From the NCBI RefSeq assembly GCF_056712565.1, contig NZ_CM160072.1: a stretch of 64,000 nt of DNA. One strand, given 5' to 3'. Made by a program: the position numbers. Below, piece by piece: positions 1-6,000 of the stretch (position 1 is its first letter; each line of letters opens with the position of its first letter).

Positions 1-3000
1 GGGTCAGGAGCCAGCAAAGGTCGCGTCCGGGTTTCGCATTCATCAGCGCACTGACGGTTTCGATAAAATCCATACCAAACCAGGTCTGTCTGCTGTTGAA
101 GGCGTTGTCATGTTCCCACGGCAGACGAAGCAGGATCCGCCGTACCCGGGAGCAGGACTGTTCACGCAGCGCACGCTCAAGAACGCCGATGACTTTGCTC
201 TGATAAGATGGCCAGAAGGGGGCAAGGCTATCGTCGAAATAAGGAATAGCATTCATAAGATATGCTCCGTTATGCGCAGCCCACAACGCGTCCTGCCCGT
301 GAATGAGCTGACGTGTTATGGTTTGCGGATGGGGTTGATGGAATACGTGAAGAACCGAAACAGAACGGGAAGATCAGGTCACCGACAAGAGGCGAACACC
401 GGATACAGGTTCAGGATGAATGATCTCCGTTGACTTCGGTTCACATCATTAAGCAGAGCGGTAAGTTTTTACTAACGGAGTATTTCCGGGCCAGGAAACT
501 CAAGGTTTAATCTTCACTTCTGAAGCTTACGTGGACGCCCTGCTGCAGGACGCTCAGGAACTTCACTGCAGCCGTAGGCACACAGCCCGTCTTTTTGCTC
601 TTCTTTCGCCAGATAATGCAGGGCACCGCGAATATTATCGATGCTTTCAGGCTCGTTATGGCGCACAGGAATGTTGATGTTGTATGTATAATGCGGCTGA
701 TATGTACAGCAGTGCGCCGAACCGCTGTTATGCGTAATAGACCGCCAGCATTCCGTAATCCGCTCCGCAAAGGGATATATTTTTTTAACCCTCTGACGAT
801 CGATCCAGAAAACCGCATGCGCATGAAAACCATGATCAGCCGTCCATTCAATCACCCAGAAGAAGCCAACGATATTTTCAAATTGTTCCACCTGCTCCAG
901 CAGCATACGCAACTGCAATTCAAGCCAGCGATGATCAGGTTGTAAGAAATCAGGCGTATCTTTCCTGTAGAAGAAATCCATGCGTAAGGCCCGCAGGCAG
1001 GAATAGCGTGCCATCATTTGATTGATGTGATTGTCAAGTAAAGCGGTAAAAAACCAGTTTGGTGTGTAAGATTTAGGCATGTTGATGACTCCTGAAAGTT
1101 AATGATGTTTTAAGCTCTGTGAACGAATTAATGCTTTCGCTCATAATCAGATCTAAAACGGTAATAACTTACAGATGGTATTTATCAGGCATGCTGTAAC
1201 AGAATGGATACGACGGATTATTAACGACACACAGCGTTGTGCTGAAGGGTATGAGTTATCTGATGGCATTGTCTATAGAGATGAGATAAACGAGGTGCGA
1301 AGAAAATACAGATTCAATACAACACAGTGAAATACTAGACTGGCCCCCTGAAATACCAGACAGTAGATGTATCTTAAAATAAGAGGTAGGCTTGGATATA
1401 TGTCTAACACTAGTTCTAATTTTGAGATTGCTGGCGTTTTGTTAGGAAAAGAGGTGCGTAAACGTAAAACACCTCAGAAAAAAAATCGCAATTATTCAAC
1501 AGACTATGGAGCCTGGCATGACTGTGTCCCACGTGGCACGTTTGCATGGCATTCAGCCCAGCCTGTTGTTTAAGTGGAAAAAACAATACCTGGAAGGAAG
1601 CCTCACTGCTGTTGCTGCCGGTGAAGACGTTGTTCCTGCTTCTGAACTGGCCGCTGCGATAAAGCAGATTAATCAGCTTCAGCGTTTACTGGGCAAGAAA
1701 ACAATGGAAGTTGAGATCCTCAAAGAAGCGGTGGAGTACGCACAATCGCGAAAATGGATAGCGCATGTGCCCTTGTTACCTTCGGACAAGGAATAGCTCC
1801 GGTAAGCCGTGTTCTGGGCGTGTCGCGTGCGCAGCTAACATTACGGATGAAGGCATCTGATAACAAGCCAGATAAACGGCGTCAGAGACGCGATGAGGCT
1901 GCGGATGCAGAAGTCTTATCGCGCATCCTGGATATCATTGGCGATATGCCAGCATATGGGTATCGCCGTGTCTGGGCGATACTCAGACGGCAGTCCCGAA
2001 ATGAAGGCTTGCCGTTCGTGAATGCAAAGCGCGTTTACCGAATAATGAGCGAAAACAGCCTGTTGTTGTTACATGACAAACCATCACGGCTGCAGCAGGA
2101 ACATAAAGGCCGAATATCGGTGAAGGAAAGCGACCAGCGTTGGTGTTCTGATGGCTTCGAGTTCGGTTGTGATGATGGCGAAAAAGTCCGGGTTACGTTC
2201 GCCCTGGACTGTTGTGATCGTGAAGCCATCGACTGGGCAGCCAGTACGGGAGGTTACGATAAAGCGACAGTACAGGATGTGATGTCAGGAGCGATAGAAA
2301 AAGGCTTTGGCGATAAAGTGCCGGAAGAGCCCATCCAGTGGCTGACAGATAACGGTTCAGCGTACAGAGCGCATGAAACACGGCAGTTCGCCAGAGAGCT
2401 GAATCTGGAGCCCTGCACGACGGCAGTCAGCAGTCCTCAGAGTAATGGAATGGCAGACGGTTCGTGAAAACGATGAAGGAAGACTACATCGCGTTCATGC
2501 CGAAACCGAATGTAAGAACGGCAGTGCATAACCTTGCAGTAGCGATCGAGCATTACAATGAAAACCATCCGCACAGTGCGTTGGGTTATCGCTCTCCGCG
2601 AGAATATCGACGTCAGCGGGTAACGTTAACTTAAGATACATCCACTGTCTGGCATTTCAAGGGGTGGCTCAAGTTTTTTCAGACAGTTGAACTAGTATAC
2701 CAATACATTCTTGTTCAGCATCAATGATACATGCTTGGTATGTCGGAAAGAAAACAGATGCTTGTTTTACGATATATCCACAGCCATAACATTGATACCA
2801 TTTCCAGCCTTTTTCCTGAATGTAGGAAATATGTAGAAAAAGTGGCAAGACTGATTCGTCTGAGTACCCCTGTTTTTTAGCATTTTCAATGCATAACAAT
2901 TGCGAATTATATGCGTTATCTGATTGAGACAAAAGATATCCATTTTTCTCATGACAACACCATCTCCATTTATTGTCATCAGTTTTATAAAATTTCCATA

Positions 3001-6000
3001 TTAATCTCTGATTGCCAGATATCTTATAAATCATAATATGCTCCACTCCCCAGGGAAACGACCCTGGGGAAGGTAATTAGTGCTCTTTTATATATGCGGC
3101 TCTGTGACGTTCAAGTTCAATTGCACCACGATGTGATAACCAGCAAAAAATGATGCAACAAATAATACCGCAGCCAAGAAGATAAAATCCGCCATGCCAG
3201 CCAATATGATCGACCATAATACCAAACAGGCTGGTGCCCAGAGATGCACCGAAGATATAGCTCATAAAACCACGTAAACCTACCGCGGAGCCAACAGCAA
3301 AGCTGGGCACGATCTCCATAGTCTGAACGGAAGCCAGAAATTGTGGAACGTAAATCAGACAACCAACAATGGCAGCAAAAATTGTCACCATAAACAACGA
3401 TTCACTTTTCCAGTAGCCAATCAGGCAAATGAAAATCAGCGCCATACAAATCATCGCCAATGGCATACGACGCCCTTTAAACAGTTTGTCTGACAACCAA
3501 CCGGCAAGTAGCGTGGAAGGGATCGCGGCCCATTCAAAAAATAAAAATGCGACGCTCATTTGTTCTTTTGAAAAATGTTTCACCGTCAGCAGATAAATAG
3601 GCAACCAGCTAATCATCCCGAAGCGCACCATGTATACAAATACGTCAACCAGTGAGACATACCAGGCATTTTTATTGCGTAATACATAAGTGCAGAAAAT
3701 CTGAAAGGCGCTCATGTTTTCTGGTGCTTTTACCGTCTGTCGGGTATTCAGGACGACTTTTTCTTCCGGCATCATCTCTTCCAGAGAGGGTAGACCTTCC
3801 TGATGTGGGGAACCTTTACCGAGAATCAGCACAATTACCGCAAAAACGATGGCCACGCAGGCCGGAACGATATAACTCGCACTTTGCCAGTGCTCGCTGC
3901 CGAGTAGGGCAAAAGCGGCACCAACAATCGGTGCAACAATACCACCACCGATGTTATGAGAGATATTCCAGAAAGCACCAACCCGACCACGCTCCCGGCG
4001 AGGGAACCAGTTAGCAATAGTGATGAAAGAAGGACCAACGCCCATTCCCTGGAAAAGACCATTCAGAATAACCAATGCCGCAAAAATCCAGAATGCGGTG
4101 CTGAATCCCAGGCCAACGTTAACGATGGCACATAACACCAGCCCACACGCCATAAAGACTTTCGGACTGGCTTTATCGGCAAGGCTACTCATCACTCCTT
4201 TGCTGATACCATAGGCGATAAGCATACAGCTACTCAGTACGCCAATTTGTGTGGCGCTGAGATCTAATTGCTCTTTAAGATAAGGCGTTGATAAGGTGAA
4301 ATTATTACGCACGATATAGTATGCAAGATACCCCAGAAATACGCTAAGTAACGCCTGCATACGATAGCGACGATATGTCACCTGAATTTTCTCCGCCGGA
4401 ACACTATCCGCCGCTTGCCCCGTTTTAAATATTGATAACATGTCTTCACCTGTATTTTATATTGATATGAACATCAGGAGTATTCTGACAATGAGAGTTA
4501 TATAATTGAGATGAAATATCAAACTGAAAAAATGTGTCACAATTGACACAAAATAATAAAATCAAAGCCTGTTTTTGACCCATTTTATTGATGCATAGAC
4601 AGGGCAGATTTATGCTTTATCTGGTTTGTTGTTAGCATGTGCGGATATTAACAAATCTCATGCTGATTATCGGGTAATCTCTGATTAATATATTAACGGT
4701 CTCTTTGAACAGACGTGTTATCAGACGAAGTGTCTGAAACGGGTAATTTTTGTCTCAATGCGATTTTTGCGGTGTATTAATATTTATGACCTGGATCACA
4801 AACCGATTCTTTAGTTGGTGCGAAATCGGCATCAAAACCATGATTCTTTTACTGTTGTTGATGGATGTCGGGGCCGTCAGGGCTCAACGAAATGAACTGG
4901 TGATGGCCACCACATTCTCACCCGGAGCTATCGCGTGGATAATACAGCGCTGGCAAACAGAGCCTGAGTCGGTAATGATCCGTACGCTTAACCGCACCAG
5001 TGCCTCACTGGAACAGTTGCTTGATACGGCCAACGTAGAAAACGTCGATCTGATCCTGACTTCATCACCAATGCTGCTCCAGCACCTTCAGGAGCACCAG
5101 AAACTGGCCCCGTTTGATGATGCACCCGCAGAAAGCCAAAACCTGGTGCCGGAGTCGATCCGTGCAACCTCCGTTGCAGTAGCAATATCAGGTTTTGGTC
5201 TGCTTATTAATCGTCCTGCGCTTTCTGTAAAACACCTTCCTGCCCCTGCTGACTGGGACGATCTTGCTTTGCCGATCTATCAGGACGCTTTATTGATGAG
5301 TAGTCCGTCGCGTTCAGATACTAACCATTTAATGGTTGAGTCATTACTACAGCAAAAAGGCTGGGTGAAAGGATGGGAAACGTTGCTGACAAGTGCAGGA
5401 AACCTGGTGACAATCTCCTCCCGCAGTTTTGGCGTAGCCGATAAAATAAAAAGCGGACTCGGCGTTGCCGGCCCCGTTATCGATAACTATGCTAATTTAC
5501 TGTTAAATGACCCCCATATCTCTTTTACCTATTTCCCCCGGTCTGCGGTATCCCCCACCTACGTTGCAATTCTCAGGAAAAGCCCACACGCCGATGCAGC
5601 CCGTCGCTTTATTCACTACCTGTTAAGTCCGAAAGGACAGCGTATTCTGGCCGATGCCAATACAGGAAAATATCCGGTGACACCACTTGCCGCAGACAAT
5701 CCGCGGGCAACGCAACAACAGCTCCTGATGAATCAACCCCCGCTGAATTATCACCTTATCCTGAAACGTCAGCGTCTGGTGCAGCGCTTGTTTGATACGG
5801 CAATTAGCTTTCGGTTCGCACAGCTAAAAGATGCCTGGCGAGCGCTGCACAGTACCGAGGCACGCCTGAAGAAACCATTACCAGAAATACGTGCACTGTT
5901 AACACAAATGCCAGTTGCAGCGGCCAGTAGTGAAGATCCCGTCTGGCTGGCACAGTTCGATAACAAAAGCTTTGCCGAGCAGCAAATGATGGAATGGCAA

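What the first reader, a model, noticed from the sequence alone, without database searches (positions are those of the whole stretch)
1336..3046. Degenerate IS2-like element with homopolymer frameshift, possibly truncating the neighbouring ORF
Seen in sequence: the orfA frame breaks in an A8 run and orfB has a stop near the C-terminus, so the element is probably immobile; the stop codon of the adjacent 125-aa minus-strand ORF is formed inside the IS terminus. Note IS2-type elements naturally use an A-rich slippery site for orfAB fusion, but this break is in the orfA N-terminal region, not at the orfA/orfB junction.
Basis: partly seen in the sequence, partly recalled or inferred. Interest (0 to 1): 0.2.

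Follow-up and report, generated by a model that had tools for sequence, protein, structure and literature searches.

The report
Dead ISEc48-type insertion sequence, hybrid end
This is an ordinary, long-dead copy of a jumping gene (an IS2-like element of the IS3 family) that sits at the seam between two blocks of a virulence island in extraintestinal pathogenic E. coli. Public annotation already marks it as a frameshifted pseudogene.

Summary
Window 1336-2671 is a 1336-bp IS3-family, IS2-group element. It is 94% identical to RefSeq "ISEc48 family" copies, 98% to one plasmid copy and 69% to IS2 itself.

- **Two inactivating lesions.** Intact relatives read CAG-GAAAAAA-TC where the window has A8 (1478-1485), so orfA is shifted at codon 28. 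One A is also missing from the catalytic Glu codon of orfB (2457/2458), which gives TGA at 2465-2467.
- **Not sequencing errors.** About 120-130 complete E. coli genomes carry both lesions at this locus; one genome has A7.
- **Programmed frameshift site is elsewhere.** The natural -1 site is the conserved CGA-AAA-TGG at 1749-1757, not the A8 run.

New here: the right 41 bp (2631-2671) is not this element's own end. It is the inverted left end of an older, different IS remnant that abuts the same small ORF in other strains. The join lies in a shared TTAAGATACA. There is no target duplication, and the left flank continues differently in IS-free relatives. The element therefore marks a recombination seam between the pap/YagK block and the pgt block.

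The neighbouring ORF (really 121 aa) does take its stop from that older IS tip, but loses only two codons. Low interest; already annotated.

The parts
1336..2671 (+). Decayed ISEc48-type insertion sequence (IS3 family, IS2 group), 1336 bp. RefSeq annotates its CDS as 'IS3 family transposase, frameshifted' pseudogene.
1336..1377 (+). Left inverted repeat (IRL), ISEc48-type except for the tip, which is TAGAC instead of TGAGC. The same tip occurs in IS2 and in another ISEc48-like remnant (E1739).
1400..1485 (+). orfA 5' part: ATG at 1400, 27 correct codons, then the frame breaks.
1478..1485 (+). A8 run. Intact relatives have GAAAAAA (7 nt). This is a +1 frameshift, shared by about 125-130 genomes; one genome (GN04275) has A7.
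1486..1796 (+). Remainder of orfA in the shifted frame (HTH_Tnp_1 plus a leucine-zipper-like region), ending at TAG 1794-1796.
1749..1757 (+). CGA-AAA-TGG, the inferred natural -1 programmed frameshift site in the orfA/orfB overlap. It is identical in all intact relatives and positionally equivalent to IS2's AAA-AAG-TGG.
   Evidence: position inferred by homology; PGAP marks intact copies 'programmed frameshift'
1754..2467 (+). orfB (HTH_21 plus rve integrase core), cut short by a premature TGA at 2465-2467.
2454..2460 (+). GCAGACG: the site of a 1-nt deletion in the GAA codon for the catalytic Glu of the DDE triad (intact copies read GCA GAA C/AGG).
2458..2634 (+). orfB 3' part (rve_3) in a third frame, ending at TAA 2632-2634.
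2631..2640 (+). TTAAGATACA, the 10-nt stretch shared by IRR-type and inverted IRL-type ends. The crossover between the ISEc48-type body and the foreign tip lies here.
2631..2671 (+). Right terminus. It is the inverted IRL of an older pOki-type IS remnant: 2/41 mismatches to the C8 remnant, against 13/41 to the ISEc48 IRR.
2669..3034 (-). Conserved small Cys-rich ORF downstream of pgtP (121 aa, WP_000639467.1; the mechanical GTG start at 3046 gives 125 aa). Its stop TGA is the first three bases of the older IS tip. An IS-free homologue is two codons longer.
1081..1335 (.). Left flank (the intergenic DNA of the YagK/YfjJ module between that gene, 514-1080 on the minus strand, and the IS). Homology to IS-free relatives stops exactly at 1335, and their continuation is not found to the right of the IS.

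Best explanation
Window 1336-2671 is a fossil copy of an ISEc48-type insertion sequence (IS3 family, IS2 group). It is fixed in the pap-pgt pathogenicity island of B2 extraintestinal E. coli such as S88, APEC O1 and ATCC 11775.

The element cannot make transposase, for two reasons.
- In orfA a G>A change turned GAAAAAA into a longer A run, and that run then gained one A. This shifts the frame after codon 27, before the helix-turn-helix.
- In orfB one A was lost from the GAA codon of the catalytic Glu. This ends the protein 56 residues early.

The natural -1 programmed frameshift region (CGA-AAA-TGG, 1749-1757) is intact but irrelevant.

The element is also structurally a hybrid. Its last 41 bp are the inverted left end of an older IS of a different sub-lineage. 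That older IS had inserted into the last codons of the small ORF downstream of pgtP.

Most likely (inferred) an ISEc48-type copy sat in the intergenic DNA beside the YagK/YfjJ gene, on its start-codon side. Its right inverted repeat then recombined with the inverted IRL of the old remnant. On the + strand the two ends read as direct repeats and share TTAAGATACA..CTGTCTGG. The recombination removed everything in between and fused the pap/YagK block to the pgt block.

The result is an immobile scar at a module boundary. The small ORF keeps its function-relevant length; it lost two codons to the old IS tip.
For: Identity and family
- Pfam domains.
- NCBIfam IS3 equivalog passed by the repaired OrfAB; IS2 subfamily models are the best hits but fall below their cut-offs.
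- Nucleotide identity 94.4% to the ISEc48-family copy, 98% to the plasmid copy L025, 69% to IS2.

Lesions
- Alignment A1, regex checks and six-frame translations.

Fixation
- 126 genomes carry the whole 2-kb configuration.
- Exact 90-bp matches across A8 (133 records at >=99%, including a few partial matches) and across the deletion (121 records).

Foreign right tip
- Against the closest relative there are 24 differences in 1305 body positions but 16 in the last 31 (Fisher p = 3e-18).
- The tip has 2/41 mismatches to the inverted IRL of the remnant in strain C8, and 13/41 to the ISEc48 IRR.
- In C8, NC101 and KE48 a minus-strand orfA' remnant abuts the same ORF at the same junction GGCTCA|AGTTTTTT.
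- That remnant is 92.7% identical to pOki-type copies but 84% to the window's orfA.

Seam
- No target duplication is present (AATAC.. against AGTTT..), whereas 10 of 14 relatives' flanks examined show one.
- Left-flank homology to MRE162 and UTI89 ends exactly at 1335, and their continuation is absent on the right side of the IS.
- The literature describes GI-pheV islands carrying pap and pgt as modules separated by IS elements (PMC11537424).

Neighbouring ORF
- The IS-free homologue in L011 reads ...QLSEKTVI*, against ...QLSEKT* in the window.
- dN/dS is 0.08-0.32 across lineages.
Against: - No intermediate genome was found that has both a complete ISEc48-type IRR and the old remnant at this locus, so the order and mechanism of the join are inferred. 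The alternatives are RecA-type or short-homology recombination, replication slippage, or an aberrant transposase reaction.
- Only 10 nt of perfect identity (about 20 of 22 nt) is available at the crossover, which is short for homologous recombination.
- Only three of the roughly 160 genomes that carry the small ORF without the window-type IS were inspected for the old remnant.
- The exact ribosomal slip site is assigned by homology to IS2 and by PGAP's 'programmed frameshift' flag, not by experiment. No significant RNA structure follows it (z = 0.6).
- Mobilisation in trans by an intact relative's transposase is not formally excluded.
Confidence: 0.82

Rival explanations
1. The A8 run is a sequencing or assembly homopolymer error, and the element's orfA is really intact.
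For: Homopolymers are error-prone. One genome (GN04275) shows A7 at the same locus.
Against: About 125-130 independently assembled complete genomes have exactly A8 in an exact 90-bp match, including S88, APEC O1 and ATCC 11775. Even with A7, orfB is still broken by the deletion, which 121 records share and which is present in GN04275.
Confidence: 0.02
2. The A8 run is a functional recoding site (programmed ribosomal frameshift or transcriptional slippage) used by this IS type.
For: IS3-family elements do use A-rich slippery sites, and long A runs can support RNA-polymerase slippage (own knowledge). The A7/A8 polymorphism shows that the tract slips.
Against: All eight intact or near-intact relatives checked have G+A6 in a continuous orfA at this position. 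The orfA/orfB overlap, where PGAP's 'programmed frameshift' of intact copies must lie, is about 270 nt downstream and is conserved. The site is in codon 27-28, upstream of the HTH.
Confidence: 0.03
3. This was a simple insertion: the element transposed into the 3' end of the small ORF, both termini are its own, and the ORF was substantially truncated.
For: The ORF's stop codon lies in the IS tip. The element has the full length of 1336 bp.
Against: There is no target duplication. The right tip matches the inverted IRL of an older remnant that sits at the identical junction in strains lacking this element. Differences from the closest relative are concentrated in the last 31 nt. The left flank's natural continuation is missing on the right. 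IS-free homologues are 111-123 aa, so at most two codons are lost.
Confidence: 0.05
4. The element is defective for transposase but is still mobilisable in trans by ISEc48 or IS2 transposase, that is, a non-autonomous element rather than a fossil.
For: Both termini retain IS2-group end sequences, and the right tip ends in ...CA-3'. Intact ISEc48-type and IS2 copies co-occur in E. coli, and IS2 has inserted into or next to it.
Against: There is one copy in each genome listed, always at the same locus, across about 126 genomes. Both ends are IRL-type, and the left tip is TA rather than TG. In IS2 the IRL is the poor donor end (own knowledge). There is no target duplication.
Confidence: 0.05

Closest known systems
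ISEc48 (IS3 family, IS2 group), as named by NCBI PGAP on intact copies
   Same: Same length (1336 bp). Same orfA/orfB layout with a -1 overlap, same IRL body and same frameshift region. Nucleotide identity is 94.4% to the RefSeq ISEc48-family copy (F404) and 98% to a plasmid copy (pRHB24-C09_3).
   Different: Two frameshift lesions, a TAGAC rather than TGAGC left tip, a foreign right tip and no target duplication.
IS2 (E. coli K-12 insC/insD)
   Same: Same group. The OrfA and OrfB architecture is the same, and the best NCBIfam subfamily hits are IS2 TnpB and TnpA. The first 17 nt of the IRL are identical (TAGACTGGCCCCCTGAA). The frameshift site is positionally equivalent.
   Different: Only 69% nucleotide identity. 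Scores are below the IS2 subfamily cut-offs (415 against 597, and 163 against 229). The slippery sequence is CGA-AAA-TGG instead of A-AAA-AAG.
IS elements as module boundaries in E. coli GI-pheV-type pathogenicity islands
   Same: The element sits between the pap/YagK-YfjJ block and the pgtPCBA block. The literature describes these islands as modules separated by IS sequences, with IS-mediated deletions (PMC11537424; annotation).
   Different: Here the join can be resolved to a 10-nt crossover between the IRR of one IS and the inverted IRL of another. That paper does not describe this. No tRNA gene lies in the window, so the integration site itself was not seen.

Membership tests
IS3 family | Two consecutive, partly overlapping ORFs (orfA with an HTH; orfB in the -1 frame) that can be fused by a -1 frameshift | tested here: met
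   After the two lesions are repaired, orfA (131 aa) and orfB (293 aa) are in a -1 relationship with an overlap at about 1712-1796. Pfam HTH_Tnp_1 is in orfA.
IS3 family | Transposase matches the family profile (rve / DDE integrase core) | tested here: met
   Pfam rve 3.3e-18, rve_3 6e-10, HTH_21 1.6e-9. NCBIfam NF033516 gives 268.6 bits against a cut-off of 160 on the repaired OrfAB.
IS3 family | Intact catalytic D, D, E triad (needed for an active member) | tested here: not met
   The D motifs ([15 protein letters not shown]) are present. The Glu codon GAA has lost one base (GCAGACGG), which produces TGA three codons later.
IS3 family | Imperfect terminal inverted repeats ending 5'-TG...CA-3' | tested here: inconclusive
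   The ends are 42 and 41 bp. The left tip is TA (as in the IS2 IRL) and the right tip ends ...CA, but the right tip is an IRL of another element.
IS3 family | Flanking direct target duplication | tested here: not met
   The flanks are ..GTGAAATAC| and |AGTTTTTTC.., with no repeat of any length. This fits a post-insertion rearrangement.
IS2 proper | Near-identity to IS2, with scores above the NCBIfam IS2 TnpA and TnpB cut-offs | tested here: not met
   Nucleotide identity is 69%. NF006918 gives 415.5 against 597, and NF006928 gives 162.8 against 229.
ISEc48 (isoform) | High nucleotide identity to the ISEc48 reference over its full length, including both ends | tested here: inconclusive
   Identity is 94.4% to a PGAP-named ISEc48-family copy and 98% to L025, but the right 31 nt are unrelated to the ISEc48 IRR.
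Programmed recoding site at the A8 run | The site is conserved in active relatives and is required to join two frames | tested here: not met
   Active relatives have GAAAAAA in one continuous frame.

The most novel reading that the evidence does not exclude
The A tract is a slippage-prone switch (A8 in most genomes, A7 in GN04275) that toggles the orfA frame. Under this reading the fossil has been retained as a source of an IS2-type OrfA repressor or DNA-binding protein. That protein would act in trans on the ends of active IS2 and ISEc48 copies, which do insert at this fossil. A shorter OrfA from the internal ATG at 1506 could also be made from the A8 allele.
Probability: 0.03. Interest if true: 0.3.

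Novelty: already known. Interest (0 to 1): 0.1.

Why it matters
It matters little in itself. RefSeq already flags this CDS as a frameshifted IS3-family pseudogene, and IS elements at module boundaries of E. coli pathogenicity islands are textbook.

The modest added value is threefold:
- A base-level account of how two island modules (pap/YagK and pgt) were joined, through recombination between the right end of one IS and the inverted left end of another.
- A caution that the apparent 'IS terminus' of a fossil may belong to a different element.
- Reassurance that the conserved small gene downstream of pgtP is essentially full length.

Tried and rejected
- **Internal inversion of a single old IS between its own terminal repeats.** Rejected. 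The left tip is IRL-type rather than IRR-type, and the body is 84% identical to the remnant against 93% for the remnant's own lineage.
- **Left tip TAGAC acquired by recombination with an IS2 inserted at the same site.** I searched a synthetic junction of the left flank plus the IS2 IRL. No genome has it. The apparent hits were IS2 copies inserted secondarily next to or inside the fossil. The TAGAC tip also occurs on an unrelated ISEc48-like remnant in E1739, so it is a natural variant.
- **Plasmid hits whose alignment reached query position 1330.** These suggested a native right end like the window's. Reading them showed ordinary IRR-type ends; BLAST had extended through weak similarity.
- **Stimulatory RNA structure after the inferred slip site.** None beyond chance (z = 0.6).
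- **Pfam and NCBIfam on the small ORF.** Nothing significant. My first impression that it was YegP/DUF1508-like was not supported.
- **tRNA scan of the window, to anchor the island.** None found.
- **Literature on ISEc48.** Only two incidental mentions.
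Full report
**What is in the sequence**

Window 1336-2671 (+ strand) is bounded by TAGACTGGCCCCCTGAAATACCAGACAGTAGATGTATCTTAA on the left. On the right it is bounded by an imperfect inverted copy, TTAAGATACATCCACTGTCTGGCATTTCAAGGGGTGGCTCA. Inside are the pieces of an orfA (Pfam HTH_Tnp_1) and an orfB (HTH_21, rve, rve_3).

The window comes from a B2 extraintestinal pathogenic E. coli. The 2-kb stretch 1200-3200 is 99.95-100% identical to S88, APEC O1, ATCC 11775 and others, and 126 of 5,426 complete genomes carry it in full.

In S88 the gene order is papC...papA-papI, an HTH regulator, a hypothetical gene, a YagK/YfjJ gene, this IS, a small hypothetical gene, then pgtP-pgtC-pgtB-pgtA. 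PGAP already labels the IS CDS 'IS3 family transposase, frameshifted'.

**Which IS it is**

The nearest PGAP-named intact relatives are 'IS3-like element ISEc48 family' copies, also 1336 bp.

| Compared with | Nucleotide identity |
|---|---|
| F404 ISEc48-family copy | 94.4% |
| Strain 2900 copy | 92.7% |
| pOkiPb01692_1 plasmid copy ('pOki-type') | 87% |
| Copy on plasmid pRHB24-C09_3 | 98% |
| IS2 proper | 69% |

With the two lesions repaired and a -1 fusion modelled, the protein passes the NCBIfam IS3-family equivalog (268.6 bits, cut-off 160). Its best subfamily hits are IS2 TnpB and TnpA, both below their cut-offs. 'IS2-like' is therefore right at group level. The element is not IS2.

**The lesions**

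In alignment A1 the intact copies read CCTCAG-GAAAAAA-TCGC (Q-E-K-I-A). The window reads CCTCAG-AAAAAAAA-TCGC, which is a G>A change plus one extra A. This breaks orfA after codon 27, and the rest of orfA continues in the +1 frame to TAG 1794-1796.

In orfB the intact copies read GGC-AGA-ACGG, that is GCA GAA C/AGG in frame. The window has lost one A (GCAGACGG, 2454-2460). This destroys the Glu codon of the SNG-x-x-E motif and gives TGA at 2465-2467. The last 56 codons run on in a third frame to TAA 2632-2634.

The +1 and -1 changes cancel, which is why the element still measures 1336 bp. Thirty-eight further substitutions are private to the window copy relative to seven relatives.

**The lesions are real and fixed**

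S88 and SF-088 have the same A8 and the same deletion. A 90-bp probe centred on A8 finds 133 records at >=99% identity, which at that length means exact matches plus a few partial ones. A 90-bp probe on the deletion finds 121. In the rows listed there is one place per genome.

One genome, GN04275, has A7 at this locus. That restores the orfA frame but leaves the orfB deletion. This is either a slippage revertant or an assembly error. Either way it shows that the tract is unstable.

**The natural recoding site**

PGAP marks the intact relatives 'programmed frameshift'. The orfB frame is open only from about 1712, and orfA stops at 1796, so the -1 shift must occur in that interval.

Within the interval, CGA-AAA-TGG-ATA-GCG (1749-1757 onward) is invariant in all copies. 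It aligns with IS2's GCA-AAA-AAG-TGG-ATA-GCG. The assignment of the slip to AAA 1752-1754 is by homology.

No RNA structure better than shuffled controls follows the site. The A8 run lies about 270 nt upstream of this interval. The finding's own refutation criterion is therefore not met.

**The right end is not this element's own**

Against its closest relative the window differs at 24 of 1305 body positions but at 16 of the last 31 (Fisher p = 3e-18). ISEc48-type IRRs read TTAAGATACA-A-CC-C-CTGTCTGGAAATAAGGGGGCAAGAACA. The window's tip has 13/41 mismatches to that sequence.

In strains C8, NC101 and KE48 the same small ORF is abutted at the identical junction (...GGCTCA|AGTTTTTTCAG...) by a roughly 400-bp remnant in the opposite orientation. 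It consists of an IRL plus the first ~110 codons of an orfA, annotated 'transposase, frameshifted, incomplete'.

That remnant is pOki-type (92.7%) and only 84% identical to the window's orfA. Its inverted IRL matches the window's right tip at 39 of 41 positions.

The window follows the ISEc48-type sequence up to ...CGTTAAC and follows the old remnant from position 2641. The 10 nt TTAAGATACA (2631-2640) are common to both. An inverted IRL reads on the + strand like an IRR, so the two ends were direct repeats. Recombination between them would delete what lay between, including the remnant's orfA'. That last step is inference. I found no intermediate.

**The element sits on a seam**

The left flank (1081-1335) is present in about 1,500 genomes. 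In the closest IS-free relative (MRE162, 99.6%) and in UTI89, homology stops exactly at 1335 and continues with sequence that is not found to the right of the IS.

The window copy has no target duplication, whereas 10 of 14 relatives' flanks examined have one.

A published analysis of GI-pheV islands, which carry pap and pgtABCP in some types, describes them as modules separated by IS elements, with whole-module deletions attributed to flanking IS (PMC11537424). The window itself contains no tRNA gene.

**The neighbouring ORF**

The 125-aa ORF is the mechanical version. Homologues and PGAP start at MIYK (121 aa).

A gene of this family follows pgtP in every version of the pgt module retrieved, including lineages with no IS at that spot. 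Their lengths are 111-123 aa. Pairwise dN/dS is 0.08-0.32, so it is a real gene. It has no Pfam or NCBIfam match.

The closest IS-free homologue (84% aa, metagenome contig L011) reads ...CAA CTG TCT GAA AAA ACA GTA ATT TAA. The window reads ...CAA CTG TCT GAA AAA ACT|TGA GCC....

The stop is thus the first three bases of the old IS's IRL, and two codons (Val-Ile) are lost. This truncation predates the element in the finding. It is shared by the three strains examined that have only the old remnant (C8, NC101, KE48).

**Mobility**

The evidence for immobility is as follows:
- There is one copy in each genome listed, always at this locus.
- No transposase can be made.
- Both ends are IRL-type, and the left tip is TA.
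- There is no target duplication.

I regard the element as immobile. Mobilisation in trans is not formally excluded.

**Verdict**

- The element is ISEc48-type rather than IS2.
- The orfB 'stop' is a 1-nt deletion in the catalytic Glu codon.
- The terminus that supplies the neighbour's stop belongs to an older element.
- The truncation is two codons.

This is an ordinary, already-annotated IS pseudogene at a pathogenicity-island module boundary.

Noticed in passing
Related loci L003, L004/L023, L005, L022, L031, L032, L033, L034 (flanks of intact 1336-bp ISEc48-type copies): Eight independent insertions of intact ISEc48-type elements are flanked by direct target duplications of 15-17 bp: 15, 15 (1 mismatch), 16, 16, 15, 17, 15 and 15. 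Two others show 4-5 bp (L027, L030) and four show none. The IS3 family is usually credited with 3-5 bp, and IS2 with 5 bp (own knowledge). Such a long stagger would be unusual for this family. It was not checked against ISfinder.
   Followed up: partly
L002 (SF-088) 3203-4533, equivalent to window ~1396-1401; also PE144 and E371: A true IS2 (1331 bp plus a 5-bp duplication) has inserted inside the fossil, in the 5' leader just before the orfA ATG, in a few strains.
   Followed up: partly
L029 (strain 1532MA) 1872-3207, equivalent to window 1331-1336: An inverted IS2 sits exactly against the outer tip of the fossil's IRL with a 5-bp duplication AATAC (...GAAATAC|IS2|AATAC|TAGACTGG...). This fits IS2-group elements targeting sequences that look like their own ends.
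   Followed up: partly
L018 (strain GN04275) 1542-1548, equivalent to window 1478-1485: One genome has A7 instead of A8 at the same locus, which restores the orfA reading frame. It could be a slippage revertant or an assembly error.
   Followed up: partly
window 2669-3034 (-), and L011-L017: A small (111-123 aa) Cys-rich protein with no Pfam or NCBIfam match follows pgtP in the eight pgt-module versions inspected (window, NC101, L011-L017). It is under purifying selection (dN/dS 0.08-0.32). Its function is unknown, and it may be an uncharacterised accessory gene of the phosphoglycerate transport locus.
   Followed up: partly
L014 about 4520-4620: In a divergent pgt module (small ORF 63% identical) a very degenerate IS2-group right-end remnant lies about 190-230 bp beyond the small ORF. 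IS2-group elements therefore hit this boundary more than once in different lineages.
   Followed up: no
window 514-1080 (-): A YagK/YfjJ (inovirus Gp2-like) gene with its upstream HTH regulator forms a cassette. It recurs at 85-100% identity in about 1,500 E. coli genomes, next to different cargo such as dsdXA in UTI89.
   Followed up: no
L025 (plasmid pRHB24-C09_3) 1497-2831: The closest relative of the window element (98%) is itself a pseudogene, 1335 bp long, with a 1-nt deletion at the position equivalent to window 2087. It is unannotated in the record.
   Followed up: yes
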